A DNA stretch of 64,000 bases, from assembly GCA_964525755.1 (NCBI GenBank), contig CAZGIK010000003.1:50279-114278 (forward strand), given 5' to 3'. This document shows positions 43,980 through 63,815 of this stretch, piece by piece. The notes beneath the pieces were generated by a model. The model saw only the letters and a program-made list of their open reading frames with translations. It made no database searches and was not told the DNA's origin. Origin of the DNA: an uncultured Verrucomicrobiota bacterium. Lineage in GTDB: Bacteria; Verrucomicrobiota; Verrucomicrobiia; Limisphaerales; UBA9464. The position numbers and the translations under genes are program-made. Each line of letters begins with the position of its first letter. Positions within the stretch are counted from its first letter, which is position 1.

Positions 43980-44195
43980 TTCGCCGCCTCCGTGGACCCC
44001 GTCCGCAGGGGGCACGCCGGGTTTCGGGGACGACGTCGGTGAGGACCCCGGGGGCCGGGTGTCGACGCCGATCGAACCTGCTGGAGCCTGAAGCGCTGCC
44101 ACCCGGCCAACGTTCCGCGGTTGGTCGGAACTGCAACCGGGGACGGGGGGTGCATGGTTGACCGGACGCGGGTTGGGTGCACCGGTGGAACGGGA

Positions 44196-44375
44196 ATGAA
44201 GAAGGCCGATCTGCCCACCAAGATCTGTGTCGCCTGTGCCCGACCCTTCGCCTGGCGCAAGAAGTGGGAGCGGGATTGGGATCATGTCCGGTACTGCTCC
44301 GACGCCTGCCGTCGCGGGGTCCATCCGCTGGCCTGTCGCACGACCGGGCGCGCGCCGCATTCGGGAAGGTCCTGA
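44196..44375 (+). CDS. DUF2256 small zinc-finger-like protein
   Basis: [40 protein letters not shown]. Confidence 0.9.
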
Positions 44376-44422
44376 TCCTGCAGGCGACTTGCGGAGGCGC
44401 GGATTCGACGCTTTCTAGCGGG

Positions 44423-46051
44423 GTGCGGATCCGTTCGGCCCGGACGCTTCGTGGCGTCCTTGTTTCCCTTCGACTCGGTTGGCTGTTGCTCTCCGTGGCA
44501 ACCGGCCGGGCTCCGGCGTGCGGAGCGGCAGTTGCCGGACAGCCCCGGGATGAGTCCGCAGCCCTCTTCGACGAGCCCCTGGTGGTCCTGGATATCACCC
44601 TCAAACCGGAGGACTGGGAGGCCCTCTCGCTGCAGACCCTGGAGGAGCCGAAGCTCCATGCCGAATCCACGGTGCGTTGGGGGGATCGCACCTGGAAGAA
44701 CGTCGGCATCAAGCTCAAGGGGTCCTACGGGAGTTTCCAACCGGCCGCGGAGCGTCCCGGCCTGACCCTCGACTTCGACAAGTTCAAGGGATGCCGCCCC
44801 TTCGTGGGGTTGACCAAGTTGCATCTGAACAACGGCGCCCAGGACGAATCCCGCCTCCATGAATGGCTGGGCGGTGAGCTGGCGCGGGCTGCCGGCGTGC
44901 CCGCGGGCCGCTGCACCCATGCCTGGCTGCGACTGCAGGGCGTCGACCGCGGGGTGTACGTGGTTCGGGAGGCTTTCACCCCGGAGATGCTTTCGGCGTG
45001 GTTCGGTCCACCGGGCCGCGGGGAGCTTCATGATCCCGGGCGCGGCGGGGACCTGGACCCGCACATGAAGCGGCGCGGTGGCAACGCGGACTCCGACGGA
45101 AGCCTGGGCGCCCTCATCGACGCCTGCGGGCGGGCCGATCCGGCGGACCGGGCGACCGCCCTCGCCGCGGCCCTGGACATCGGGGCCTTCACCGCCTTCA
45201 CCGCGGCCGAGGTGCTCCTGGGCCATTGGGACGGCTACGCGCTGGCGGCCAACAACTACCGGGCCTACCGACGGCCGCAGGACGGCCGCTTCGTGTTCCT
45301 CGCCCATGGGATGGACCAGATTCTCGGCGACCCCGATGCCCCGCTGTTCACGGACTTCCAGGGCATGGTCGCCGGGGCCTTGCGGGAGATCCCGGGGCAG
45401 TCGCACGCCTGGGCTGCGGAGCTGCGTCGGCAGGTGGACACCGTGTGGAGCCGGGAAGGCTGGGAGGGTCGGATCCGAGCCCGTGCATCGATGCTGGCGG
45501 CCGCCGTGGAGGTGCACGACCCGGACCAAGCGTCGACCCTGCGCGAGCTCGGGGCGGATCTTGCCCGTCGGTTTGGGGAACGCCTGGCGTTCGCCCGTCC
45601 GGCCACCCGCACGTCTCCGCGGGCTCTTGCCCATGCCCGATCAGGCCCGGTTCTCCTCGCGGACGGCTGGCATCCCGACCGTGATCCGCATCCGGAGATG
45701 GTTTTCCAGGTGCCGACCGACACCGATCGCACCTGGCGCCTGGGTGCGGAGCGCCCCGGGGTGGGATCGTGGCGTCAGACGCTGGATCTGCCCCCCGGCC
45801 GGTACCGGTTCTCGGCGCGGGTCACGACCTCCGGGGTCTCGGTCGAGGACTTCGAGTCACCGCGCGGGGCCGGGTTGCGGGTGTTGGGAGGGGAGGTCCG
45901 ATCCCGCTCCTGGGTCCGTGGCAACCGGCGCGAGCGGCAGTGCCGGCTGGAGTTCGAGGCCAGTGGCCCGGTCTGCCTCCTGCTCGAGCTGCGTGCGGGA
46001 TCCGGCGTGGCCGGATTCGACGCGGATTCCTTGTGGCTGGAACCGCGGTGA
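44423..46051 (+). CDS. CotH kinase family protein
   Basis: VGIKLKGSYGSF; LTLDFDKF; KLHLNN..QDESRLHE; GVYVVRE; HWDGY..NNYR; FLAHGMDQ. Start approximate. Confidence 0.82.
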   Translation: MRIRSARTLRGVLVSLRLGWLLLSVATGRAPACGAAVAGQPRDESAALFDEPLVVLDITLKPEDWEALSLQTLEEPKLHAESTVRWGDRTWKNVGIKLKGSYGSFQPAAERPGLTLDFDKFKGCRPFVGLTKLHLNNGAQDESRLHEWLGGELARAAGVPAGRCTHAWLRLQGVDRGVYVVREAFTPEMLSAWFGPPGRGELHDPGRGGDLDPHMKRRGGNADSDGSLGALIDACGRADPADRATALAAALDIGAFTAFTAAEVLLGHWDGYALAANNYRAYRRPQDGRFVFLAHGMDQILGDPDAPLFTDFQGMVAGALREIPGQSHAWAAELRRQVDTVWSREGWEGRIRARASMLAAAVEVHDPDQASTLRELGADLARRFGERLAFARPATRTSPRALAHARSGPVLLADGWHPDRDPHPEMVFQVPTDTDRTWRLGAERPGVGSWRQTLDLPPGRYRFSARVTTSGVSVEDFESPRGAGLRVLGGEVRSRSWVRGNRRERQCRLEFEASGPVCLLLELRAGSGVAGFDADSLWLEPR

Positions 46052-51129: not shown

Positions 51130-51687
51130 TCAAGGAGCGGCCATTGCGAGGATCAGCGGCCGACAACGACGGAAAGAGGCCTCGATTTCCGGGAATGGGG
51201 GGACGAGCGCCTGTTCCATGGCATCTGCGAGACAGGTTCGCGGGATCCGATCGGTCTCGATCAGGTAGCGGGCGTCGGCAAGGTCGAGCTCATCCAGGCC
51301 GCGCATCATCTTCGTCAGGACCAGGTCCACGGTCGCCGGACGCCATAGCTCGAGCCAGCGGGTCGCCGGCCGCGGGAGGCGGACGAGGTGGTCTTCCCAA
51401 CACCGGCGCAGGATCACCATGTCGGCCGGGAAGAGATGTGTGATGTACAGACCTTCGGACTGGAGGTTCCGATTTGTCTGGTCCTGTGCCGCCCAGAATC
51501 CGTCATCCGCGGTCAGTGCCTCGGTCTGGCTCATGGGGATGATGGCATCGACATCCAGTGACCTGGCGATGGAGTCCGGCGGTGTTGGGAATCCCAACTG
51601 GATCGCTGCCCGGCCGTAGAGGATCAGCCGGACGGGGTGATCGAGATGCCCGTCGAGGGTGGTCAGGATTCGGGAGGCGTTGTCCAT
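51130..51687 (-). CDS. Predicted nucleotidyltransferase (DUF6036/AbiEii-like), candidate toxin
   Basis: LILYGRAAIQLG..RSLDVDAII (G..DxD NTase motif); DLVLTKMMRG.DELDLADARYL. Confidence 0.68.
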   Translation of the reverse strand: MDNASRILTTLDGHLDHPVRLILYGRAAIQLGFPTPPDSIARSLDVDAIIPMSQTEALTADDGFWAAQDQTNRNLQSEGLYITHLFPADMVILRRCWEDHLVRLPRPATRWLELWRPATVDLVLTKMMRGLDELDLADARYLIETDRIPRTCLADAMEQALVPPFPEIEASFRRCRPLILAMAAP

Positions 51688-52193
51688 CGGTCGGGGCTGG
51701 GTCGAATCCACTGGGCGCGTGTTCCCCGTCCGGCGCGGGTCCACCCGGTCATGGCGACGAATCGTGTCGGGTGGGGCAGGATGCCCTCCGGCACGTCGGG
51801 TGCCTTGGGCAAGAGGTCGATCAGGCGGGTCCAGAAGGGGTTGTCCGGCTCGAACTGGTGTCCGGCCCGAGCCACTGCGGCGAGCATCGCCTCGCAGCGC
51901 TCCATTCGGGCGAGGCGGGCGAGGATCGCCGGGTCGTTGCCCGCCGCCGCCACCATGGCAGCCCCCATGCGAAGGGCTTCCGGCGACCACTCGATACCGC
52001 CGTGCAGCAGGGCGATCGCCAGTTCCTCGTTTGAAACACGTTCCGGTCCCGGGTCCTGTGGGGCGTCCCCGGCCGCTCCGGCGTAGTAACGGCATCCCCG
52101 TCCGACGGCGAGGGCCATCAGGTTCTGCGCTCCGCCCAGCCCCCTGCCCCCGAGCTTGCGAAGCAGTGGGGACAGGTGTTCGGTCGTTCCCAT
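51663..52193 (-). CDS. Hypothetical protein overlapping the nucleotidyltransferase start, candidate antitoxin
   Basis: 176-aa ORF (SNEELAIALLH..ILPHPTRFV.MTG) whose 3' end overlaps the downstream gene by 25 nt. Confidence 0.62.
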   Translation of the reverse strand: MGTTEHLSPLLRKLGGRGLGGAQNLMALAVGRGCRYYAGAAGDAPQDPGPERVSNEELAIALLHGGIEWSPEALRMGAAMVAAAGNDPAILARLARMERCEAMLAAVARAGHQFEPDNPFWTRLIDLLPKAPDVPEGILPHPTRFVAMTGWTRAGRGTRAQWIRPSPDRWTTPPES

Positions 52194-52410
52194 ACGACGG
52201 CTCGTGGTCACCACCCCCGGATCCTAGTGCTCCCGGATGCCATGCTCAATCCCCGCCCCCTGATGCGGGTCCGGCAGACCCGCTGCAGCTGGATCGGGCG
52301 TGGCAGCGAGTTCCCGTCCGCAGCAGCCTCGTCCTTTGTGTCATCCCCCCCGGGGCGGTCAACAGAGGGGTTGCCATCGGACCGCCGCGGCCCATGGTGG
52401 GGTTCCTGCG

Positions 52411-53395: not shown

Positions 53396-54562
53396 CTACT
53401 CCGTGGCCGGGGCGTCGGTCGGGGCCGGTCCGAGGGTCAGGTCGACCAACTCGCCCGGCAGGACCCGGAATCCGCCGGGGATGGCCACGAGGATGGGGAG
53501 TCCGTATTCGGCCGACGGGCTGGCGGCGGGCCGGATGGGATCGATCGAGAGGGTGCCGCCGGGCCGTGGGGGCAGGAGTTCGGGGAGGATGGGTTCCAGC
53601 TGGGTGCCGGTGCGGAGGATCTCGGAGTCGGCCGACTGCCCGGAACGGCCGCGGCTCCGGAGTCGGACCTTCTGTCCCGGGACCGGCTCGGTGGTGAACG
53701 GTTGCCGGAGGTAGGCCACGATGTGCTGGGAGCGGTCGGCGCTGATGGTGAGGATCGGCTCCCCGGCGAGGACGTTCTCGCCGTCGTGCCGATGGACCAT
53801 GCTGACGAACCCGTCCATGGGGGCGAGCAGGGGCACGGGACGCAACTGGATCTCGATGGCCTCGAGGGCGCGCTCCTCGACCGCGAGGGCGGCGCGGACC
53901 GAGCTGGGGAGGTCGGCGTCGATCTTCCGGCTGTTCGGCTCGAACTCCGCCATCGCCCGGGCGAGTTCATCGACCAGGACCGTCTGTTCGGCGACCTGGT
54001 CGCGGAGTGAGTCGCGGTCGCGCTCGGCGACCTGGACATCGAAGATGGAGGCGACGGGGAACGGGGTGCCGTTGGTGGTCTGGAGGTTCCGGACCCGATC
54101 CAGCTCGAACTCCTGGAATGCCAGCTGGGCCCGCAGGTCGGCCAGTTTCACCCGGTCGCGCATCCAGTCGAGGCGGAGGTTGAGGTAGTTGATCTCGTTG
54201 TTGTCGCGGCGGAGGCGCGGTTCGATGGCGGTGCGGGCGAGTTCGATCCGGGCCTTGCTCAGTTCCGCCTGGGCCTCGACCAGGCGGGGGTCCGCGAGGA
54301 TCAGTTCGGCCACCGCCTGTCCGGCGGCCACCTGTTCCAGGGGGGCGACCAGCACCCGGGTGAGGCGTCCCGGCACCGTGCTGCTGACCAGGGTGCGACG
54401 GCTTTCCGCCTCGCCCACGATCGCGGCCGGTCCCTCATAGGAACGCCACTGGAACACCACCAGGGTGACGAGGGCGGCGAACACCAGGAACGGGACCACG
54501 TTGACACGGATCTCCCGGAAGATCGTGCCCGGCGGGCTGGGGATGGGGGGGAGGCGTTCCAT
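53396..54562 (-). CDS. HlyD-family periplasmic adaptor (membrane fusion) protein
   Basis: N-terminal TM helix; lipoyl half VSSTVPGRLTRVLV..VAAGQAVAEL; coiled coil; LLAPMDGFVS..GENVLAGEPILTI; ends GELVDL. Confidence 0.82.
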   Translation of the reverse strand: MERLPPIPSPPGTIFREIRVNVVPFLVFAALVTLVVFQWRSYEGPAAIVGEAESRRTLVSSTVPGRLTRVLVAPLEQVAAGQAVAELILADPRLVEAQAELSKARIELARTAIEPRLRRDNNEINYLNLRLDWMRDRVKLADLRAQLAFQEFELDRVRNLQTTNGTPFPVASIFDVQVAERDRDSLRDQVAEQTVLVDELARAMAEFEPNSRKIDADLPSSVRAALAVEERALEAIEIQLRPVPLLAPMDGFVSMVHRHDGENVLAGEPILTISADRSQHIVAYLRQPFTTEPVPGQKVRLRSRGRSGQSADSEILRTGTQLEPILPELLPPRPGGTLSIDPIRPAASPSAEYGLPILVAIPGGFRVLPGELVDLTLGPAPTDAPATE

Positions 54563-54563
54563 G

Positions 54564-55259
54564 TCAGACCTCCGATTCCTCCTCGGCCCGAAGGCTGGTC
54601 ACCCGGGACACCCCGGGGAAGGACTTCACCTCGGTCATCAGCTCGTCCATGCGGCCGGCGTCGCGGAGCAGGAGCCGGTAGGAGAGGTCCGCGCCGTCGT
54701 GGCCCTGGGCGCTCCGCTGGCTGGCCACCACCGTGCGGCGTGCGTGGCGTTCCAGCAGGAGGGCCAGGTCGGGGAGTTCACCCAGCGGACGTCCCCAGTG
54801 CAGGTTCAGGATCAGGTCGAACCGGTGCCGGCTGCCGAACTGGGTCCAGTGCAGGTAGAGCATCAGGAGGGCGAACAGGGCGCTGCCGATGACCGCCGTG
54901 CCGAACTTCCGGGTCCCGGCCGCCATGCCGATGGTGATGCTGGCGAGGATGTAGCTGGTGTCGAGGGTGTCGCGGAGGATGTTCCGGAAGCGGACGATGG
55001 CGAACACGGCCATGAGGCCGAAGGCGATGAGGAGGTTGTTGGCCATCACCATCATCACCAGGGCGACGATCACACAGAGGACCACCAGCGAGTTGACGAA
55101 CGAGCGGGAGTAGCTGAGGCCGGAGTGGCAGATCATGTAGATCCAGGCCACGACGTGCCCGCACAGGAACGCGATCAGGAGGCCCAGCACCATGCCGCGG
55201 ACGTCGTCCGGTGCGGTGCCGAAGTTGGCGCGGGTGATCCAGTCCATGGTGTTCCCCAT
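54564..55259 (-). CDS. DUF4956 membrane protein
   Basis: YSRSFVNSL; AFGLMAVFAIVRFRNILRDTLDTSYIL..IGMAAG; ACT-like C-terminus. Confidence 0.9.
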   Translation of the reverse strand: MGNTMDWITRANFGTAPDDVRGMVLGLLIAFLCGHVVAWIYMICHSGLSYSRSFVNSLVVLCVIVALVMMVMANNLLIAFGLMAVFAIVRFRNILRDTLDTSYILASITIGMAAGTRKFGTAVIGSALFALLMLYLHWTQFGSRHRFDLILNLHWGRPLGELPDLALLLERHARRTVVASQRSAQGHDGADLSYRLLLRDAGRMDELMTEVKSFPGVSRVTSLRAEEESEV

Positions 55260-55262
55260 CGT

Positions 55263-56105
55263 TCAGGCCTCCTGGAGCAGCCCGGCGATCCGGTCCTGCC
55301 GCTCCTGGCGTCGCCGCTCCGAGGCGCCGTAGTCCAGCCCCGGGGGCAGCATCGGCCCCTCGCGCTGGAAGTGGTGTTCCCCCTTGGCGGCGATCCCGTC
55401 GGCGTACTTCGACGCGGATCCCTGCCGCAGGTTGAAGACGCGCACCATCTCCTTGAACCAGTCGGGGAACCGTCCGGTGAACTTGAGTTCGAGGATCACC
55501 AGGTTGCCGAACACGCGGCTCGGGTCGTCCATCCGGGCGCTGAATCGGGTGACGAACTCCGGGGAGATGAGGACGTTGCGGTCCATGGTGACGCGGACGG
55601 AGTTGTCCGACGGGCTGATCCATGCCTCCCGCTCATAGAAGACGTGGGCGGTGGGGGCGGCGCGGTCGCGCAGCATCAGCTGGACGAACCGCTGGATGGC
55701 GACGAGCTGCCGGGGGTCGCCCGAGACGAGGTCCTCCGGTCCCGGCAACTGTCCGGCCAGGACCGCCTCCACGGCCTGCCGCTTCACCCCGCCGCGCTGC
55801 TTCAGGATCGCCTCGTTCATCCGGCGCTTGATCTCGAAGTAGATCGGCGTGGTGGGGTTGTCCTCGTAGAACCGGAGACGCAACTTGTAGCGGTTCTTGT
55901 TGCCATTGATCGTCCCCCAGTAGATCGCCAGGTCGTCGGAGTCGAGATACAGGTTGTGGATCGTGTAGGAAAGGTTCGGCCGCCCCGCCCCGTACTCGTC
56001 GATCTCGAGGTACGAACGCACGAAGTCCCGGATCATCAGGGCGAGATCCTCCGGGATGACATACTTCAGCTCCCAGCGCTGAAGCTGCATCTGGTCTTCG
56101 GCCAT
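55263..56105 (-). CDS. VTC (polyphosphate polymerase)-domain protein, CYTH/TTM fold
   Basis: RWELKY; NLYLDS; RYKLRLRFY; FEIKRR; YEREAW; RVTMDRN; ILELKF; SKYADG. Confidence 0.9.
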   Translation of the reverse strand: MAEDQMQLQRWELKYVIPEDLALMIRDFVRSYLEIDEYGAGRPNLSYTIHNLYLDSDDLAIYWGTINGNKNRYKLRLRFYEDNPTTPIYFEIKRRMNEAILKQRGGVKRQAVEAVLAGQLPGPEDLVSGDPRQLVAIQRFVQLMLRDRAAPTAHVFYEREAWISPSDNSVRVTMDRNVLISPEFVTRFSARMDDPSRVFGNLVILELKFTGRFPDWFKEMVRVFNLRQGSASKYADGIAAKGEHHFQREGPMLPPGLDYGASERRRQERQDRIAGLLQEA

Positions 56106-56371
56106 TCTCTTACTTGGACTTCAGTCGGGTCTCCGGGCTGTGTGTGCTGTCGGCCATGCCCTCCTCGGGCTTCCGGGTTGCCGCCCAGACGTGACGCAAT
56201 CGACGCCAGACTGTCAAGCGGCCCTCCGGAAACGCAGTGCTGCGAAAGGAGGAGTCGACGGAAAGGACTTAGCAGTCGCCGTGCCGGTTGCCGGGGATGG
56301 GGCGGGGTATCGGTCCGGGATTGAATGGGTTGACCGGTATTCCGTCCGACGACAGGTTGATTCCACTTCAT

Positions 56372-56770: not shown

Positions 56771-59700
56771 TCAGGGGATCACCCGGACCCGGAAGTAGTA
56801 CGGGATCCGCGCATCCAGCGCCGGCAGGGTGACCTGCTGGTCCGATCCGTCGCCGTACACGAGTTCCGAGTAGGGGATCCAGTCGACGAGATCCTGGCTG
56901 CCCTCGAGGAGGTATTCGCGATCGGGCCGGGTGTTCCACGACACCCGGACGGTCCGGTTGGGGAGTTCCGCCGGTGCCTCCACCCGGAGGAAGGAGTCCG
57001 GGTCCGACGGATCCGTCCCAGCCTGGAACTCCCGCAGGTCGCTCATCCCGTCGAGATCGGAGTCCGTCCCGGCCGGACGCGGATCGGTGTTGCCGAGGAA
57101 CTCGATCTCCCAGAGGTCGGAGATGCCGTTCCGGTTGTCGTCGGGGAAGGTGTAGGTGCCGGCGAAGACGAGGGCGTTGGTGGTCCCGCCCAGTTGACCG
57201 GACTGCGGGGGCGGGGTGACGTGGAAGGGCACCGGCTGCCAGGTAATGGTGTAGTCGCCCGGGGGCACGTTGGTGGGGAAATGCCGGCCCCGGCCGGCGA
57301 TCAGGGCCGGTCCGTCGAGGTGGAACCGGGCCTGGGCGAGGTTGTTCGACACCACGAGGAGCGTTGACGGGACCGTGTTGATGTCGACCCCGATGTCATC
57401 GATCAGCCAGCCGAGGCGGTCGATGGCGCTGAAGCTGAACATCTGGTAGTTGAACCGGAAGCGGACGACCCGGCCGAGGTACCGGGAGATGTCGATCTCG
57501 ACCTCCTCCCATCCGTCCGACGCCTCCTCCGGGTTGGCCCAGAGGGCGTTCCAGCTGGCGCCGTTGTCGGCCGACACGGCGATCTGGGCGATCTCCAGGC
57601 TGAAGTCGGCGAAGTCGTCGCCGGTGGACGGGGTGGTGAAGTCGTAGTGATGCCAGAAGCGGAGGGTGGCGCGGTTGCCGCCGAGGAGGCTCACGGCGGG
57701 GCTGACGAGGTCGGTGATGGCGAGGTCGACGACCTCGCCGCCGAGGTTGGTACCCCAGCAGTTGGTGCCGGAGCGGGCGGTGACGCCGAAGCGGTTCACC
57801 GGACGCCCGTACTGCCAGGCCGAGTTGAGGAAGGCGCCGGAATCCTCCTCGTCGTCGAAGAACCCCCCGGTGAGCCCGTCGTCGTTGAACACCGCCCAGC
57901 CCGTCCGTCCGGACTCGAGGTCGTCGACCCACGGCGGGGTGACCGGACGGAGGGTCCGCAGGCGGTGGAGCGCCCCGTCGTTGTCGTCGACCGCCGCGTT
58001 GCCCGCAGCGTCGCGGCTGACCACCTGGTAGTAGTAGTCCCGGTCGGGGATCAGTCCGGTGAGGAGCACCTCGTGGTAGGTGGCCAGCTCGGCGCTGTAG
58101 GCGGTGCGGGTGAGGAACGTGGGGTCGCCGGGACTCTCGCCGTACCGCACCAGCGCGTCCGACGGCTTGTCCGTCTCCCAGAACACATAGGCCTCGTTGT
58201 ACGAGGGCTCGTGATCCACGCCGAAGGCGGCGGGCGCCACGGTGTCGACCGCCGCGAAGGTGCCGGCGGTGCGGCCGGCGTCGTCGAGATAGACGGCGTC
58301 GATCCGGTCGCCGTGCGCGGCGGGCAGCCGCGGGACGGCCTCCCCCGGCGGCAGCGGCGGACCGGCGGGCGCCGCACCCGGCGGCCGGTCGACCAGCACC
58401 AGCCGTCCCCGGAAGATGCCGGGCACCGGGGTGGCGAAGCACTCGACCGTCACCGGTCCCGCCTGGCCGGCGACCGACACCCCGACCGGCACCGAGGTCT
58501 CGCCGATGCGCCGGGCGTCGGTCACCTCGACCACCGCCGAGGCGGGGATGGTGTACGCGATGCGGTCGAAGGCGACGGTGGAGATGCCCCCGAGGCCCGG
58601 CAGGAGGAACTCGAGGGCGTTGCCCAGCACGGTGGCGCGGTTGTCGGGTGCGGGGGCGTCCGCCGGGACCGCCTCGAGGGGGAAGGAGAAGTAGACCACG
58701 CGGCCCCGGCTGTCGCTGCCGGTCCGAGGATGCCGCAACCCGACCACCCGCCCGTCCTCCTGCAGGAACACCGGGGCGGCATTGGTGGACACCTGGAGGT
58801 GGTCGGGGCCGTCCTCCCAGACGATCCCGAGGATGTCGATGAAGAACCCGCTGGGGAACGCCTGGTAGTCGAGTCCGATGGTGGCCCCGCTCCCGACCGG
58901 ATCCCCCGGCACGCTTTCGACGAACGTGGCGCCCTGGTCGACCAGGTACTCGTCCACGTGCAGCACCCGACGCCGGAAGTCCTCCTGCTGTTGTTCGTCG
59001 AGGCGCGAGAGGAGGTCGAAGGACGCGATGAAGAGGGATCCGCCGGCGTCGGCGTAGGCGGTGAGGGCCGCGATCAGCCCCGGGGGCGGGGACTGGAGTT
59101 CCTCCGGCCGCCACAGCACGAGGCGGTAGGGCTTGAGGTCCTCGAAGCGGGGGGCGACACCCCGTGCCCCGGTGTCCCAGACCTCGTAGTCGACCCCGAG
59201 CTGGTCGAGGGTGTCGGTCCAGGTCTCCGGCCCGGGGTAGGGCGACTCGCTGAGGATCCCGTCGGGTCCGAAGATGGCCTCGGGACTGTAGACCAGCAGG
59301 GCGGTGGGGGTGCGGGGGCCGACGAACCGGAACATCCGGCCGCCGTTGTCGTTGGTGCTGGTGTTCCCGGCCGGGTCGGTCGAGACGACGTGGAACAGGT
59401 AGGTCTCGCCCGGGGTCACCGCGGGCAGCTCGACGCGGTGGCGCTGCCGGAAGGCGGGATCGGACACCACCTGGGTGACGGCGTTGGAGGGGCCGAAGAC
59501 CACCCGGGAGTTCGCCGGTTCGCCGGTGAGCCAGGTGATGCCGACCCGGCCGAACTGCCCGGCGGCGACCACGTCCGAAATCGCTGGCGGCTGGGCGTCG
59601 ACCATCGCCGTCGCCCGACGTTCCCCGGGCGGGTCCGCATCCACATACACCGCCGTGAGCACGTCGCCGTCCACGCCGCTGAGGAGTCCGTCGGCCGGAT

Positions 59701-62044
59701 CGGCCGGGGCGTCGGTGATGTCGATCGTCCCGGTGAAGGTCCCCCCGTTCCCGGCCGGTTGCAGGGTGACCGTCAGGCCGTCCGGTTCACGCGGGCCGGA
59801 CACCCGCACGGCGACCGACGTGTTCCCGGTGAGCTGCTGGTCGACCACCCGGAGCAGGGCGGTGGCGGGGGAGCGGTAGGCGGGGCGGTCCCACGAGACC
59901 ACGCCCTCGCCGGGGGCGGGCAGCTGGCCGGAGACCACGAGGGCGAAGTCCTGGCCGGGGGTGGGGGTGGGCCCGCCGCGGATGTCCTGGACCACGTTCA
60001 CGCCGCGGACCCGGACCACGTACTCCCCGGCGATCGGGGTGGAGAGGTGGACCGCCTCGACGTTGTTGATCGGGTCCCCCACCGGCGTGCCGGCGACCGA
60101 CTCGCCGTCGGCGAAGGCATTGCCGCGGTAGAGGATGCCGTTGGGGTCGACGACCTCGAGGTCGAGGTCGTTGACCAGGGCCGGGATGGCGGCGGGGAGG
60201 CCGGGGACGTCGGTGTAGACCAGGGTGACCTTGAGGGTGTCGTCCGGGCCGACCACCACCCGGCGCTCGAAGACGTCGCCGGAGGCGAGGACCGGCCCCT
60301 GGTCGGTGAACTCGTGGCGGCGGTCGGAATCGATCAGGTTCTCCAGGTCGATCCGACCCCATCCCTCGTCGTTGTTCGGCACCGGCCCGGTGTCCCCGAC
60401 CACGACGCCCGGGTCGAAGGGATCGTCGATGTCGCCCGGGACCACGCCGGTGGACATGTCGATGGCCGAGTTGATGAGGGCGGCCTTGACGAGGGCGGGC
60501 GACGGGGTGAGGCCGCCGCGGGTGGTGCGGTACCACTGGATGAACACCGCGCAGGCGCCGCTGGCGTGGGGGCCGGACTGGGAGGTGCCGCCCTGGTAGA
60601 GGTAGTACTCGTCGATCGGCGACCAGGCGTTCTCCTCGCCCGAGGCGGCGGACTTGAGGGAGGCGATCCACGTGCCGGGGGCGACGATGTCCGGCTTGAT
60701 CCGGCCGTCCTCGGCCGGGCCGCGGCTGGAGAAGTCGGCCATCACCTCGGGGCCGGAATCGTAGATGCCGAAGGTGTAGCGGCTGTTCTCGGTGGCGCCG
60801 GTGGCGATCACGTTCTTGGCCACCGCCGGGGTGCCGATGGTCTGCCCGCCCGGGCCGGAGTTGCCGGCGCTGAACTCGAGGACGTACTGCTGGTCGCCCG
60901 GGGTGACCGCGTCGGCATCGCGCACCAGTGCGTCGAATTCCGCCGCGGTCAGGTCGTACCTGCCCTGGGTGTCGTCACCCCAGGAGTTGGATCCCACGTA
61001 GGCGCCGGCCCGGACGGCGTCGCGTGTCAGGTGCTCGAAGGAGGGCGGCGGGCGGTAGTTGCCCTGCCCGTCGAAGATCCGCTGGGCGACGATGTGGGCC
61101 CCGGGGGCGACCCCGAGTCCGTAGAGGAACCCCTCCTCGTCCGTGGTTCCCACGGCCGCGTTGCCGGCGACGATCCCCGCCACGTGGGTGCCGTGGCTGT
61201 GTTCGTCCGAGGCGTCCGGCAGGTTGTCGTAGGCGAACAGGGCGTCGACCCGTCCCTCCAGGTCCGGGTGCATGAACTCCAGGTCGCCGAGGTCGAGCCC
61301 GGAGTCCGCGACCGCCACGGTGACCCCGGCGCCGTCGAACCCGAGCTGATGCACCGCCGCCCGCGTGCCGGCCTCGAAGTCGTCGCCGGCCACGATCTTG
61401 GTCGCGATCTCGTCGAAGAGCCGCATGCGTCGGGCGGGCTCGATCCACACCACCGCCGACGAGCCGGCCAGTCGCCAGAGGCGCCGGGCGTCGACCGTTC
61501 CCTCGGCGAAGGTGCCCACGGCGAACTGCCGCAGGCGGGTGGTCCCGCGGAGCTGCCGGGCGACGGCGGCCTTCCCGGCGGGGGTCACCCCGGGGTGGAG
61601 GAGCAGCCGCACCGGCACCTCGCCGCCGCCGGCCGCCCGAAGGATCGAGGCGAGGTCGGCATCGACCTTGTGACGGGGTTCGAACGGGCCGAGCCATCGG
61701 ATGAACGGCAGGGCGCGGATGGCCTCCGGACGGGCGCCGGAGAGGCGGGCGATGAAGGCGTTCTCGGGGATGAAGTGCAGCAGTTCGACCCCCAGGGGTG
61801 CCAGCGCCTCCCGTCCGGCCGGATCGGGGCGTCCCTCGAACTGGACCAGGAAGAGCCCGTCGACCGTCGTCTCCCCGACGGCGGCCCGCGCCGCGGCCCG
61901 GGAACGGTCGGGTTCGGGTGTCTCGATGCTCCCGTTGCGCAGACGGATGGCCGGCCCTGCCATCGCCATCCCCCCGCCGGATCCCGGGTCCGCCGCCAGC
62001 AGCCCGAGCAGCAGCAGGACCAGGAGGGCGGGGACACGGTTCAT
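56771..62044 (-). CDS. Secreted multidomain S8 subtilase (1757 aa)
   Basis: Triad VAVADSG, HSHGTHVAG, GGTSQS; oxyanion FSAGNSG; two FN3-like repeats (WLTGEPANSRV, WETDKPSDALVRYG); jelly-roll WGTN..LVSP..LRFWHHY; DSDLDGMSD repeat; C-terminal tail ending YYFRVRVIP. Confidence 0.92.
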   Translation of the reverse strand: MNRVPALLVLLLLGLLAADPGSGGGMAMAGPAIRLRNGSIETPEPDRSRAAARAAVGETTVDGLFLVQFEGRPDPAGREALAPLGVELLHFIPENAFIARLSGARPEAIRALPFIRWLGPFEPRHKVDADLASILRAAGGGEVPVRLLLHPGVTPAGKAAVARQLRGTTRLRQFAVGTFAEGTVDARRLWRLAGSSAVVWIEPARRMRLFDEIATKIVAGDDFEAGTRAAVHQLGFDGAGVTVAVADSGLDLGDLEFMHPDLEGRVDALFAYDNLPDASDEHSHGTHVAGIVAGNAAVGTTDEEGFLYGLGVAPGAHIVAQRIFDGQGNYRPPPSFEHLTRDAVRAGAYVGSNSWGDDTQGRYDLTAAEFDALVRDADAVTPGDQQYVLEFSAGNSGPGGQTIGTPAVAKNVIATGATENSRYTFGIYDSGPEVMADFSSRGPAEDGRIKPDIVAPGTWIASLKSAASGEENAWSPIDEYYLYQGGTSQSGPHASGACAVFIQWYRTTRGGLTPSPALVKAALINSAIDMSTGVVPGDIDDPFDPGVVVGDTGPVPNNDEGWGRIDLENLIDSDRRHEFTDQGPVLASGDVFERRVVVGPDDTLKVTLVYTDVPGLPAAIPALVNDLDLEVVDPNGILYRGNAFADGESVAGTPVGDPINNVEAVHLSTPIAGEYVVRVRGVNVVQDIRGGPTPTPGQDFALVVSGQLPAPGEGVVSWDRPAYRSPATALLRVVDQQLTGNTSVAVRVSGPREPDGLTVTLQPAGNGGTFTGTIDITDAPADPADGLLSGVDGDVLTAVYVDADPPGERRATAMVDAQPPAISDVVAAGQFGRVGITWLTGEPANSRVVFGPSNAVTQVVSDPAFRQRHRVELPAVTPGETYLFHVVSTDPAGNTSTNDNGGRMFRFVGPRTPTALLVYSPEAIFGPDGILSESPYPGPETWTDTLDQLGVDYEVWDTGARGVAPRFEDLKPYRLVLWRPEELQSPPPGLIAALTAYADAGGSLFIASFDLLSRLDEQQQEDFRRRVLHVDEYLVDQGATFVESVPGDPVGSGATIGLDYQAFPSGFFIDILGIVWEDGPDHLQVSTNAAPVFLQEDGRVVGLRHPRTGSDSRGRVVYFSFPLEAVPADAPAPDNRATVLGNALEFLLPGLGGISTVAFDRIAYTIPASAVVEVTDARRIGETSVPVGVSVAGQAGPVTVECFATPVPGIFRGRLVLVDRPPGAAPAGPPLPPGEAVPRLPAAHGDRIDAVYLDDAGRTAGTFAAVDTVAPAAFGVDHEPSYNEAYVFWETDKPSDALVRYGESPGDPTFLTRTAYSAELATYHEVLLTGLIPDRDYYYQVVSRDAAGNAAVDDNDGALHRLRTLRPVTPPWVDDLESGRTGWAVFNDDGLTGGFFDDEEDSGAFLNSAWQYGRPVNRFGVTARSGTNCWGTNLGGEVVDLAITDLVSPAVSLLGGNRATLRFWHHYDFTTPSTGDDFADFSLEIAQIAVSADNGASWNALWANPEEASDGWEEVEIDISRYLGRVVRFRFNYQMFSFSAIDRLGWLIDDIGVDINTVPSTLLVVSNNLAQARFHLDGPALIAGRGRHFPTNVPPGDYTITWQPVPFHVTPPPQSGQLGGTTNALVFAGTYTFPDDNRNGISDLWEIEFLGNTDPRPAGTDSDLDGMSDLREFQAGTDPSDPDSFLRVEAPAELPNRTVRVSWNTRPDREYLLEGSQDLVDWIPYSELVYGDGSDQQVTLPALDARIPYYFRVRVIP

Positions 62045-62345: not shown

Positions 62346-63815
62346 TCAGTGACCCGGGTTGGCCACCGGGCCGACCCGGAAGTAGCAGGCGTCGGCCGAC
62401 AGCGGCCGGGTGGTGATCCCCGGGCTGGCGGGATCGGTGGGGACCGGTTCCCAGGGGCCGTGCAGCGGGTCGGGGGCCGTCTCCAGGGCGAGCTCGGGCG
62501 GCCAGGACAGGGTGATGCCCGCCCGGGACCGGGAGAGGCGCAGGGCCGGATCGTCCCGTCGTCGCAGGGCGTGGACCAGGGTGTGGCGGGCGACGGCCCG
62601 GCCGAGTTCCCCCCCGGCCCGGTTGGCGCTCTGGAAGTGGATCCCGCCGTAGATCCGGCTGATGCCCGCCTCGTCGGCCGCCTCGGAGAAGCTTCCGAAG
62701 GCCCGTTCCACCCCCGAGAGTCCGTCGGATTCCAGCGCGAACGCGAACCGGTCGTCGCCGTTGACGTGGGCCAGCACGGCCGCCGCGGCGGCGCTGAACG
62801 TGCTGTGCCCGGAGACGTACTCGGGAAAGGGCGGGGTGTCGACCAGCGGGAGCCAGCCGGCATCGGACTGCGTGGCGGGATGTCCGTCCCCGGCTGCGGC
62901 CCGGATGGCGGTGACCGGCCGCCACCCGTCGTGGGCATACTTCGAGTCCCAGGTCGCGATCGCCGCGTCGGCCAGGGCGAGGTTGAGCACGGCGAAGACG
63001 CGGGCGGTCTCGACCAGGTCCCCGTTCCCCCGGGACGCCATCCACAACCGGGCGATCCGGTTCCAGTGCCCCGGCGGGGTGACGGTTCCGGGACCGTCGG
63101 CCCAGAACCGGGCGATCGCGGTCTGGTCGGGTGTCCGAAGGGTGCTGTCGCGGGCCCCGAGGCGGCGGACCTCCTCGAACTCCGCGGCCCAGGCGTCGGT
63201 GGCCGGCGGCGGGGGCGGTCCGGGCCGGAAGGCGTCGGGCCGCGGGAGCAGGAACGGCATCATCACCGCCCATTGGGGCAGGAGGGCGCTGTCGAAGAGG
63301 GGCGGGGTGGGTTCCCACCGGCCCGGCCCCGGCGAGGGCCGGTGGTCGATCCCGCGCTGGGATCCGTCGAACTCCCGCTCGCGGATCAGGTCGAGCGCCA
63401 CGGCCCGGCCCCAGGCCACCCCGTCCCGGACGGGGTTCCCGCCGGGTATCGCGGCGAGTTCCGCCTGGAGCGCGGCGTCGAAGGCGATGGTGAACGCCGG
63501 CCACGCGTGGCGCAGGACCTGGTTGGCGGCGGCCGCGGCGGCGGCCGGGGCCGAGGCCCCGGCCGGGGGCGTGCCGTGGTCGCGGTGGTTCCGGTAGGGC
63601 CCGCCGAGGGCGTTCACGGCGTCGAACTGCGCCAGGTGCAGGATCGCCAGCCAGCGCGAGGCGGCGGGGGGCGGGGTGTTGGAGAAGCGCACCGCCTCGA
63701 CAGCGTCCCGGTTCGCCCGCTCGACCGGCGTCTCCGCCGCCAGCGACGTCCCGCCGGCCGCGAGCCCCAGGCACGCCGCGTACACGGCCACCGTCCGATG
63801 GAGGAAGGGGGGCAT
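62346..63815 (-). CDS. Secreted vanadium-dependent haloperoxidase / PAP2-superfamily protein
   Basis: WDSKYAHDGWRP; TPPFPEYVSGHS; SRIYGGIHF; signal peptide. Confidence 0.88.
   Translation of the reverse strand: MPPFLHRTVAVYAACLGLAAGGTSLAAETPVERANRDAVEAVRFSNTPPPAASRWLAILHLAQFDAVNALGGPYRNHRDHGTPPAGASAPAAAAAAANQVLRHAWPAFTIAFDAALQAELAAIPGGNPVRDGVAWGRAVALDLIREREFDGSQRGIDHRPSPGPGRWEPTPPLFDSALLPQWAVMMPFLLPRPDAFRPGPPPPPATDAWAAEFEEVRRLGARDSTLRTPDQTAIARFWADGPGTVTPPGHWNRIARLWMASRGNGDLVETARVFAVLNLALADAAIATWDSKYAHDGWRPVTAIRAAAGDGHPATQSDAGWLPLVDTPPFPEYVSGHSTFSAAAAAVLAHVNGDDRFAFALESDGLSGVERAFGSFSEAADEAGISRIYGGIHFQSANRAGGELGRAVARHTLVHALRRRDDPALRLSRSRAGITLSWPPELALETAPDPLHGPWEPVPTDPASPGITTRPLSADACYFRVGPVANPGH

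What the first reader, a model, noticed from the sequence alone, without database searches (positions are those of the whole stretch)
53396..56105. VTC polyphosphate-polymerase domain, DUF4956 and HlyD adaptor in one tight operon
Seen: three co-oriented genes separated by 3 nt and 1 nt, with a perfect TTGACA on the same strand upstream (56212-56217). The VTC protein retains the ExKY and basic tunnel residues. Established: eukaryotic VTC couples polyP synthesis to membrane translocation; bacterial VTC-domain genes commonly pair with DUF4956 and often with CotH, but their function is uncharacterised. Inference: the added membrane-fusion protein suggests a machine that makes a phosphate polymer (or phosphorylated glycan) and passes it across the envelope. 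A CotH kinase sits ~7 kb away.
Basis: partly seen in the sequence, partly recalled or inferred. Interest (0 to 1): 0.68.

Follow-up and report, generated by a model that had tools for sequence, protein, structure and literature searches.

The report
Putative polyphosphate export three-gene operon
A freshwater or soil verrucomicrobium carries a tightly packed, widely conserved three-gene operon that joins a yeast-type polyphosphate-polymerase-like enzyme and a small membrane protein to the periplasmic adaptor of an efflux pump. It looks like an undescribed machine for passing a phosphate polymer out of the cell, but no part of it has been tested.

Summary
Three minus-strand genes encode a VTC-domain protein (55263-56105), a DUF4956 membrane protein (54564-55259) and a HlyD-type adaptor (53396-54562), with gaps of 3 nt and 1 nt. 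The host is a Limisphaerales/Pedosphaera-like verrucomicrobium.

- **Conservation.** HlyD directly follows DUF4956 in 79 of 80 related loci, and VTC precedes it in 71 of 80. No other neighbour is conserved.
- **Variants in other orders.** The same core gains a TolC-type gene after HlyD. In one nested clade a phosphate-selective porin takes the place of HlyD. Giant secreted CotH kinases often flank the core.
- **VTC.** The residues that inactivate yeast Vtc4 when mutated are all kept.
- **DUF4956.** It is not Vtc1-like. It is a five-helix membrane protein with a cytoplasmic ACT domain, built like MgtC.
- **HlyD.** It folds as a MacA/EmrA-type adaptor.

The most likely reading is an envelope-spanning assembly in which VTC and DUF4956 replace the usual pump and export polyphosphate. 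This is inferred, not shown.

Points against:
- No bacterial VTC enzyme has been assayed.
- Deleting the streptococcal VTC homologue gave no reported phenotype.
- VTC is unlinked in about 10% of loci.
- The CotH gene 7 kb away is not syntenic.
- The TTGACA has no -10 partner.

I file it as a new variant of a known but uncharacterised module.

The parts
55263..56105 (-). VTC-domain protein (triphosphate-tunnel fold), 280 aa, cytoplasmic. Candidate polyphosphate polymerase.
   Evidence: Pfam PF09359, E 7e-40. It aligns to yeast Vtc4 as follows: K14=K200, R76/R78=R264/R266, E91/K93=E279/K281, E206/K208=E426/K428. All of these are invariant in 21 orthologues. It is the only VTC gene in the genome.
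54564..55259 (-). DUF4956 inner-membrane protein, 231 aa: five transmembrane helices plus a C-terminal ACT-like domain. Candidate channel or coupling subunit.
   Evidence: Pfam PF16316, 40.2 bits. The AlphaFold model has pLDDT 82, with helices at 20-44, 52-72, 76-92, 98-115 and 119-139, followed by a beta-alpha-beta-beta-alpha-beta domain. Foldseek places the C-terminal domain with ACT domains, including the MgtC C-domain 2LQJ. hhalign against an MgtC protein gives probability 82% and E 1e-5 over 197 columns. Y41, G81, R90, F91 and R92 are invariant across 66 diverse members.
53396..54562 (-). HlyD/EmrA/MacA-type periplasmic adaptor (membrane-fusion protein), 388 aa, with an N-terminal membrane anchor.
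   Evidence: Pfam HlyD_3 and HlyD_D23. Nearest solved relatives by sequence are LipC, MacA and EmrA. The AlphaFold model has pLDDT 91, with a TM helix at 23-41, a split lipoyl domain, long helices at 92-240 and a beta-barrel at 298-377. The best Foldseek matches are MacA and EmrA, E 3e-15. An N-terminal cytoplasmic motif, LPPIPSPPxxxWREFR, is conserved within the order. The tip residues R156, L160 and S172 are conserved in the family.
55260..55262 (-). 3-nt gap between the VTC stop codon and the DUF4956 start codon.
   Evidence: The median gap in 65 related loci is 6 nt.
54563..54563 (-). 1-nt gap between the DUF4956 stop codon and the HlyD start codon.
   Evidence: The median gap in 98 related loci is 3 nt, and 90 of the 98 lie between -4 and +6 nt.
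56212..56217 (-). TTGACA hexamer upstream of the operon, in the 182-nt divergent spacer shared with a cytochrome c gene. Promoter status is unproven.
   Evidence: The sequence was read. No -10 partner is present, and the promoter scan gives no hits.

Best explanation
The three genes form one operon that encodes a membrane-anchored assembly.
- **Step 1.** The cytoplasmic VTC-domain enzyme takes the gamma-phosphate of ATP and adds it to a growing polyphosphate chain, as yeast Vtc4 does.
- **Step 2.** It sits on an oligomer of the DUF4956 protein in the inner membrane. The two most conserved motifs of DUF4956 (GLSYSRSFVN and VRFRNxLRD, the latter holding the invariant RFR) lie on its predicted cytoplasmic face. 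The chain is passed through this oligomer to the periplasm.
- **Step 3.** The HlyD-type adaptor, anchored beside DUF4956, forms the periplasmic duct. An outer-membrane channel encoded elsewhere in this genome completes the route. It would be one of about seven TolC-like genes.
- **Step 4.** The polymer ends up in the periplasm, at the surface or outside. There it may serve the many secreted CotH kinases of this lineage.
- **Regulation.** The ACT domain may be the regulatory input that SPX provides in eukaryotes.

Shown here: gene order and its conservation, the homologies, residue conservation, the predicted folds, and the alternative partner genes.

Inferred: polymerase activity, the physical complex, DUF4956 as a conduit, outward direction, the identity of the product, and any use by CotH.
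For: **Conserved module**
- HlyD follows DUF4956 in all 28 order-level loci whose flank reaches it and in 79 of 80 loci from species genomes. The one exception ends at a contig edge.
- About 500 loci in the species-genome collection match the subfamily motifs.
- The gaps are a few nucleotides.
- No other flanking gene family is kept in more than 20 of 96 loci. In this order the operon ends at HlyD, next to unrelated housekeeping genes.

**The usual pump is missing**
- No ABC, RND or MFS transporter is adjacent.
- The adaptor is nevertheless a standard MacA/EmrA-type fold.
- Its family keeps the TolC-binding RxxxLxxxxxxS tip motif: R in 54, L in 45 and S in 42 of 60 sequences (motif defined in PMC3391258).

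**Context in other orders of the phylum**
- A TolC-family gene follows HlyD in L132, L139, L151 and L179.
- Three loci have VTC-DUF4956 followed by a Porin_O_P phosphate-selective porin.
- In the DUF4956 tree this porin clade is nested inside the HlyD-linked clade, so an outer-membrane phosphate channel took the place of the adaptor.

**VTC**
- It keeps the residues whose mutation (R264A/R266A/E426N) inactivates yeast VTC.

**Link to secreted CotH kinases**
- CotH flanks the trio in 6 of 15 loci from other orders.
- In 201 genomes of the phylum, 32 have both DUF4956 and CotH, 1 has DUF4956 only, 12 have CotH only and 156 have neither.
- In the order, all 5 genomes that lack CotH also lack the trio.

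**A separate polyphosphate route exists**
- The genome has PPK1, so a second, membrane-coupled polyphosphate route would be a specialised one.
Against: - No bacterial VTC-domain protein has been assayed, as far as the searched literature shows.
- The conserved tunnel residues are shared by triphosphate-tunnel hydrolases. They do not prove polymerase activity.
- DUF4956 has no detectable relation to the Vtc1/DUF202 channel subunits. No pore has been shown. Its relative MgtC is known as a regulator, not a channel.
- VTC is the least tightly linked gene. It is absent from the spot in 9 of 80 loci and 3 order-level loci and is encoded elsewhere in those genomes. The obligatory pair is therefore DUF4956-HlyD.
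- In Streptococcus intermedius, deleting the DUF4956 and CotH homologues changed Pel level and aggregation. Deleting the VTC homologue had no reported effect (PMC12345266).
- In the window's own protein the RLS spacing is broken by a 5-residue insertion at the hairpin tip.
- No outer-membrane gene is in the operon here.
- The phyletic correlations are not corrected for shared ancestry.
Confidence: 0.4

Rival explanations
1. This would be an efflux pump of a new kind that exports something other than polyphosphate. DUF4956 is the inner-membrane transporter and HlyD (with TolC in trans) is the duct. The VTC-domain protein is a triphosphate-tunnel hydrolase that powers or gates the pump by cleaving ATP or tripolyphosphate, much as MacB powers MacAB-TolC. 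The cargo could be a small anion, a nucleotide or a cation.
For: - The adaptor fold is closest to MacA and EmrA, which belong to drug and toxin pumps.
- Triphosphate-tunnel enzymes are mostly hydrolases (PMC4641920, listed), and the conserved residues fit that equally well.
- The DUF4956-HlyD pair persists where VTC has moved away.
- The streptococcal VTC deletion was silent while the DUF4956 deletion was not.
Against: - No triphosphate-tunnel enzyme is known to drive transport.
- The protein belongs to the VTC family rather than to the CYTH hydrolase family.
- A phosphate-selective porin takes the place of HlyD in a nested clade, which points to a phosphate-type cargo.
Confidence: 0.2
2. This would be a regulatory module rather than a conduit. 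DUF4956 acts like MgtC: it binds and modulates another membrane machine, such as the ATP synthase, a phosphate transporter or a sensor kinase, in response to a ligand sensed by its ACT domain. VTC makes or destroys a small polyphosphate or triphosphate signal. HlyD is a structural partner in the periplasm.
For: - The five-helix plus ACT architecture and the hhalign match to MgtC.
- JGI labels relatives as YhiD-like.
- The same view is offered for the streptococcal homologue SIR_1592.
- MgtC acts on F1Fo ATP synthase and on phosphate signalling (cited in PMC12345266).
Against: - It does not explain why the partner genes are always envelope-passage parts: an adaptor, TolC or a phosphate porin.
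- It does not explain the strict pairing with a VTC enzyme in 32 of 34 phylum-level loci.
- The Pfam MgtC model itself does not match the protein at E 0.01.
Confidence: 0.15
3. This would be an uptake system. Environmental polyphosphate or pyrophosphate enters through an outer-membrane channel and is handed by the adaptor to DUF4956. In the cytoplasm the VTC-domain enzyme, acting as a polyphosphatase, pulls it in and cleaves it. The system would be a phosphate-scavenging device.
For: - Porin_O_P family members (OprP and OprO of Pseudomonas, from my own knowledge) serve uptake of phosphate and pyrophosphate. This porin is the third gene in three loci.
- Several triphosphate-tunnel enzymes are tripolyphosphatases (PMC4641920, listed).
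Against: - HlyD/TolC assemblies are outward ducts in all characterised cases.
- No periplasmic binding protein and no Pho-type regulator gene lies in or beside the operon.
- The link to secreted CotH kinases fits export better.
Confidence: 0.07
4. The HlyD gene would belong to an unrelated efflux system and merely happen to lie next to a VTC/DUF4956 pair.
For: No outer-membrane or pump gene is in the operon here.
Against: - The adjacency holds in 79 of 80 loci with a 3-nt median gap, and in several other orders where DUF4956 is only 23-31% identical.
- The flanks are otherwise variable.
Confidence: 0.01

Closest known systems
Eukaryotic VTC complex (yeast Vtc4/Vtc3/Vtc1; PDB 3G3Q, 7YTJ, 8I6V)
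   Same: The catalytic domain is homologous (Pfam VTC). The Vtc4 residues K200, R264, R266, K281, E426 and K428 are kept. The enzyme is always encoded beside a membrane protein, which matches the coupling of synthesis to translocation described for VTC (PMC9911596).
   Different: There is no SPX domain. The membrane partner is a separate protein of an unrelated fold, five helices plus ACT instead of three-helix DUF202 subunits. The target compartment is the bacterial envelope rather than a vacuole. A periplasmic adaptor is added.
cotH / polyphosphate-polymerase-domain / DUF4956 accessory genes of Gram-positive Pel loci and of Clostridium perfringens NELoc-2 (PMC7112168, PMC12345266, PMC2879425)
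   Same: It has the same VTC-DUF4956 core. Genome-level coupling to CotH is strong. The streptococcal DUF4956 homologue is described as MgtC-like with an ACT domain, as found here.
   Different: In this window CotH is not in the operon, and a HlyD adaptor is the third gene. The host has two membranes. No Pel genes are nearby. In the DUF4956 tree the CotH-next loci of this phylum form a separate deep clade from the HlyD-linked ones.
Tripartite efflux and type I secretion assemblies (MacAB-TolC, EmrAB-TolC, HlyBD-TolC)
   Same: The adaptor has the standard anchor, lipoyl, hairpin and beta-barrel build. Its best structural matches are MacA and EmrA. The family keeps the RLS tip motif. Relatives carry a TolC-family gene right after the adaptor.
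   Different: There is no ABC, RND or MFS pump. A VTC enzyme plus DUF4956 stand in its place. No TolC gene is in the operon in this order. The tip motif of the window's own protein is interrupted by a 5-residue insertion.
MgtC/SapB/YhiD family
   Same: Both have about 230 residues, five transmembrane helices and a C-terminal ACT-like domain. hhalign gives probability 82% over the whole length. The fold matches the MgtC C-domain 2LQJ.
   Different: The Pfam MgtC model does not match. DUF4956 has its own invariant RFR motif. It is always paired with a VTC enzyme, which MgtC is not.
Synthase-dependent polymer secretion with an adaptor-like co-polymerase (alginate Alg8/Alg44; from my own knowledge, not tested here)
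   Same: The logic is the same: a cytoplasm-facing polymerase at the inner membrane, coupled to a protein with a membrane-fusion-protein-like periplasmic domain, so that a polyanion leaves as it is made.
   Different: There the polymer is a polysaccharide and the enzyme is a glycosyltransferase. No sequence relation was tested.

Membership tests
Pfam VTC domain (PF09359), triphosphate-tunnel fold | Sequence match above the curated cut-off | tested here: met
   137.4 bits against a cut-off of 23, covering model positions 2-233 of 235.
Pfam VTC domain (PF09359), triphosphate-tunnel fold | Tunnel residues equivalent to Vtc4 K200, R264, R266, K281, E426 | tested here: met
   The equivalents are K14, R76, R78, K93 and E206 by profile alignment to 3G3Q. 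They are invariant in 21 orthologues. The R264A/R266A/E426N mutant is the inactive yeast complex.
Pfam VTC domain (PF09359), triphosphate-tunnel fold | Polyphosphate polymerase activity from ATP | not testable with these tools
   This needs an enzyme assay. No bacterial member was found assayed in the literature searches.
Eukaryotic VTC complex | SPX regulatory domain | tested here: not met
   The 280-aa protein holds only the VTC domain.
Eukaryotic VTC complex | Three-helix DUF202-type membrane subunits forming the channel | tested here: not met
   The partner is DUF4956, with five helices plus an ACT domain. It has no sequence match to any VTC chain, and no VTC chain appears among the top 50 fold matches.
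DUF4956 (PF16316) | Sequence match above the curated cut-off | tested here: met
   40.2 bits against a cut-off of 30.6.
MgtC/SapB family (PF02308) | Match to the family model | tested here: inconclusive
   There is no Pfam MgtC hit at E 0.01. hhalign of the DUF4956 alignment against one MgtC protein gives probability 82% and E 1e-5 over 197 columns.
MgtC/SapB family (PF02308) | Five transmembrane helices followed by an ACT-like cytoplasmic domain | tested here: met
   The AlphaFold model. Foldseek hits to ACT domains include 2LQJ, with a target-normalised TM-score of 0.58.
Periplasmic adaptor / membrane-fusion proteins (HlyD, EmrA, MacA type) | Membrane anchor, split lipoyl domain, alpha-helical hairpin, beta-barrel domain | tested here: met
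   Pfam HlyD_3 and HlyD_D23. Model with pLDDT 91. Foldseek matches to MacA and EmrA, E 3e-15 to 5e-15.
Periplasmic adaptor / membrane-fusion proteins (HlyD, EmrA, MacA type) | RxxxLxxxxxxS tip motif that docks TolC | tested here: inconclusive
   In the family, R156 is kept in 54, L160 in 45 and S172 in 42 of 60 sequences, with canonical spacing wherever the tip insertion is absent. The window's own protein reads R-x3-L-x11-S.
Tripartite efflux / type I secretion systems | Inner-membrane ABC, RND or MFS transporter encoded with the adaptor | tested here: not met
   The neighbours are VTC, DUF4956, lipA and cytochrome c. No transporter family is conserved in 96 loci.
Tripartite efflux / type I secretion systems | TolC-family outer-membrane factor | tested here: inconclusive
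   None is in the operon here or in the order. About seven OEP genes lie elsewhere in the genome. An OEP gene follows the adaptor in L132, L139, L151 and L179 of other orders.
VTC-DUF4956-CotH module | CotH kinase gene adjacent to the pair | tested here: not met
   In the window CotH is 7.3 kb away on the other strand. It is absent from that position in 8 relatives.
VTC-DUF4956-CotH module | Co-occurrence of CotH with VTC/DUF4956 in the genome | tested here: met
   This genome has 15 CotH matches. Counts in 201 genomes of the phylum are 32, 1, 12 and 156 (both, DUF4956 only, CotH only, neither); Fisher p 5e-26, not corrected for phylogeny.

The most novel reading that the evidence does not exclude
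Double-membraned bacteria would have a dedicated secretion system for an inorganic polymer. A PPK-independent, yeast-type polymerase makes polyphosphate at the inner membrane. An MgtC-like protein threads it out, and an adaptor with TolC (or a phosphate porin) carries it across the envelope. Its purpose would be to supply a phosphoryl or energy donor outside the cytoplasm, where there is no ATP, for the large families of secreted CotH kinases.
Probability: 0.1. Interest if true: 0.9.

Novelty: new variant of a known kind. Interest (0 to 1): 0.6.

Why it matters
Bacteria are thought to make polyphosphate only with PPK1 and PPK2, and only in the cytoplasm. A membrane-coupled VTC-type route that delivers the polymer to the envelope would be a second pathway and a new kind of secretion cargo.

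It would also give a testable answer to how exported CotH kinases find a phosphoryl donor. These kinases number 10-41 copies per genome in this lineage.

The three-gene form found here is compact and self-contained, and about 500 loci in the species-genome collection match its subfamily motifs. That makes it a convenient version to express and assay.

If the enzyme turns out to be a hydrolase, the operon would still define an adaptor-dependent envelope system with no conventional pump.

Tried and rejected
- **Locus search with the HlyD alignment.** It failed because no stretch was conserved enough. The DUF4956 alignment was used instead.
- **Homologue search with the window's DUF4956.** It returned only close relatives and added no diversity.
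- **DUF4956 as the bacterial Vtc1.** Rejected. There is no sequence match to any solved chain beyond chance, and no VTC chain appears among the top 50 fold matches.
- **CotH 7 kb away as part of the locus.** Rejected for this order. Eight relatives, five of them in the same genus, have no CotH, lipA or apgM within about 17 kb downstream of HlyD. With 15 CotH copies in 4.8 Mb, one within 7.5 kb has roughly a 5% chance.
- **TTGACA as a promoter.** Not supported.
- **Other conserved flanking genes.** None found. Cytochrome c is kept in only about 20 of 96 loci. The genes after HlyD are miaA, mnmE or lipA on the opposite strand.
- **VTC as the only polyphosphate synthase.** Rejected, because PPK1 is present.
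- **A linked phosphate porin or TolC in this genome.** Both exist, but on other contigs.
- **The 405-aa exported helical protein after HlyD in L133, L135 and L146.** It has no Pfam match even at E 1 and was left unidentified.
- **VTC structure and co-folding.** No structure model of the VTC protein and no co-fold of the three proteins was made. Both prediction slots went to DUF4956 and HlyD, and the tool folds single chains only.


Full report
**What is there**

Window positions 53396-56105 hold three minus-strand genes with high third-position GC (0.90-0.95).
- A 280-aa VTC-domain protein: Pfam PF09359, E 7e-40.
- A 231-aa DUF4956 protein: PF16316, 40 bits against a cut-off of 30.6.
- A 388-aa HlyD-type membrane-fusion protein: HlyD_3 and HlyD_D23 above cut-off, with partial matches to MdtN, EmrA, HlyD and DevB.

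The gaps are 3 nt and 1 nt. The operon is bounded by lipoyl synthase, which is convergent, and by a planctomycete-type cytochrome c gene, which is divergent. The TTGACA at 56217-56212 is real. It has no -10 partner, and the promoter scan finds nothing. A CotH gene lies at 44177-46051 on the other strand, with apgM, a nucleotidyltransferase and a methyltransferase in between. The genome has a single VTC gene.

**Who carries it**

Titles of related loci place the organism among Limisphaerales/Pedosphaera-like Verrucomicrobiota.

**Conservation in the order**

- An orthologue of the HlyD protein is present in 33 of 41 relatives.
- DUF4956 lies directly upstream of it in every locus whose flank reaches it, and VTC lies upstream of that in most.
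- A scan of one genome per species found about 500 loci with the two DUF4956 subfamily motifs. In the best 80, HlyD follows DUF4956 in 79, and the exception is a contig end. VTC precedes DUF4956 in 71.
- The DUF4956-to-HlyD gap has a median of 3 nt (n = 98). The VTC-to-DUF4956 gap has a median of 6 nt.
- VTC and DUF4956 are 50-85% identical to the window's proteins. HlyD is only 28-57% identical.
- No other neighbour is conserved. The best is cytochrome c, in about 20 of 96 loci. The genes after HlyD are unrelated housekeeping genes on the other strand.

So this is a self-contained three-gene module.

In the 12 genomes without an adjacent VTC gene, a VTC gene lies elsewhere, with no DUF4956 or HlyD beside it. 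The obligatory pair is therefore DUF4956-HlyD.

**The wider phylum**

In 200 genomes drawn evenly from the rest of the phylum, 32 carry DUF4956. Their 34 loci fall into types:

| Type | Loci |
|---|---|
| VTC-DUF4956-HlyD | 15 |
| VTC-DUF4956 with a large secreted CotH protein | about 11 |
| VTC-DUF4956 followed by a Porin_O_P phosphate-selective porin | 3 |
| Other | remainder |

- In the 13 trio loci that lie outside the window's own clade, DUF4956 is only 23-31% identical to the window's.
- In the trio loci, a TolC-family gene follows HlyD in at least three.
- An independently annotated Lentisphaerae contig shows VTC, DUF4956, a barrel-sandwich adaptor and OEP in a row.
- CotH directly flanks the trio in 6 of the 15 loci. 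In three of them it is on the same strand, which gives four-gene operons.

A DUF4956 tree splits with full support into two clades. One holds only CotH-next loci. The other holds all HlyD-linked ones, and the porin loci are nested inside it. The adaptor link is therefore old, and in one lineage an outer-membrane phosphate channel took its place.

**CotH**

The CotH gene 7 kb away is not syntenic in eight relatives. CotH is nevertheless greatly expanded, with 15 matches in this genome and 10-41 in relatives, and it is coupled at genome level.
- In the order sample, all five genomes without CotH also lack the trio. Of 36 genomes with CotH, 33 have the trio (Fisher p 7e-5).
- In the phylum sample the counts are 32 with both, 1 with DUF4956 only, 12 with CotH only and 156 with neither.

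These tests ignore shared ancestry.

**The proteins**

*VTC.* Profile alignment to yeast Vtc4 maps K14 to K200, R76/R78 to R264/R266, E91/K93 to E279/K281 and E206/K208 to E426/K428. All are invariant in 21 orthologues. R264A/R266A/E426N is the inactive yeast complex. These residues are also typical of tunnel hydrolases, so they do not settle the chemistry.

*DUF4956.* It has no solved relative by sequence. Its model (pLDDT 82) has five transmembrane helices and a C-terminal beta-alpha-beta-beta-alpha-beta domain.
- That domain matches ACT domains, including the MgtC C-domain.
- hhalign to an MgtC protein gives 82% probability over the whole length.
- JGI labels relatives YhiD-like.
- A 2025 paper describes the streptococcal homologue the same way.
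- Across 66 diverse members only Y41, G81, R90, F91 and R92 are invariant.
- With the ACT domain in the cytoplasm, the two most conserved motifs lie on the cytoplasmic face. This is an inference from topology.

*HlyD.* The model (pLDDT 91) has an N-terminal anchor, a split lipoyl domain, long helices and a beta-barrel. Its best matches are MacA and EmrA. The family keeps the RxxxLxxxxxxS motif that docks TolC (PMC3391258). In the window's own protein the tip carries a 5-residue insertion.

**Rest of the genome**

PPK1 is present. About seven TolC-family genes and one phosphate porin lie on other contigs.

**Literature**

- VTC, DUF4956 and CotH genes have been noted together at Gram-positive Pel loci (PMC7112168) and in Clostridium perfringens (PMC2879425).
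- In Streptococcus intermedius, deleting the DUF4956 and CotH homologues changed Pel level and aggregation. Deleting the VTC homologue had no reported effect.
- I found no assay of a bacterial VTC enzyme and no description of the adaptor-linked form.
- Earlier notes of this scan describe VTC-DUF4956-adaptor-TolC cassettes in other double-membraned bacteria. I confirmed the four-gene form only within this phylum.

**Reading**

The best-supported view has three layers.
- The three genes are one functional unit. This is near certain.
- They form an envelope assembly in which VTC and DUF4956 stand where a pump normally stands. This is likely.
- The product is polyphosphate, exported. This is plausible, at roughly one chance in three.

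Rivals are a tunnel-hydrolase-powered pump for another cargo, an MgtC-like regulatory module, and an uptake system. Chance adjacency is excluded.

Noticed in passing
whole genome G000 and relatives; in the window 44177-46051: The CotH kinase family is greatly expanded. This 4.8-Mb genome has 15 matches and relatives have 10-41. Many sit in open frames of 1,000-2,800 aa. Those scanned in loci from other orders also carry Laminin_G_3, lamin-tail and Ig-like domains.
   Followed up: partly
L125, L126, L127 (three families of the same class): VTC-DUF4956 is followed directly by a Porin_O_P phosphate-selective porin instead of HlyD. The three loci form a supported clade nested inside the HlyD-linked DUF4956 clade.
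   Followed up: yes
L133:2586-3821, L135:2593-3816, L146:2507-3718: A conserved protein of about 405 aa follows HlyD in one family. It has a signal peptide and a helix-rich sequence but no Pfam match even at E 1. It may be a very divergent outer-membrane factor.
   Followed up: partly
L149 (genome G191): This locus has the reversed order. A HlyD-type gene sits upstream of a short 185-aa DUF4956 protein, whose match to the DUF4956 profile ends before the ACT region, and no VTC gene is beside them. This is the only DUF4956-bearing genome of the phylum sample without CotH.
   Followed up: no
window 53396-54562, residues 162-166 of the HlyD protein: A 5-residue insertion (TTNGT) sits at the predicted hairpin tip. 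It is shared with relatives in the same family, among them L003, L006 and L016, and it breaks the canonical RLS spacing that more distant relatives keep. It may go with the lack of a dedicated TolC gene.
   Followed up: partly
window 56771-62044 and 62346-63815: A giant 1,757-aa subtilase carries a purple-acid-phosphatase N-domain and a MAM-like domain. Beside it is a PAP2/vanadium-haloperoxidase-like protein. The subtilase and the cytochrome c gene are syntenic with the trio only in a few of the closest loci.
   Followed up: no
window 51130-52214: Overlapping ORFs lie between apgM and lipA. Only a faint DUF6036 nucleotidyltransferase match was found (E 0.0095).
   Followed up: no
G000:C7:16350-16712 and same-genus relatives (L159-L169): The MgtC-domain proteins of this genus are about 413-aa all-membrane proteins with no ACT domain. 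The classic five-helix plus ACT MgtC was found only in one other genus of the order.
   Followed up: no
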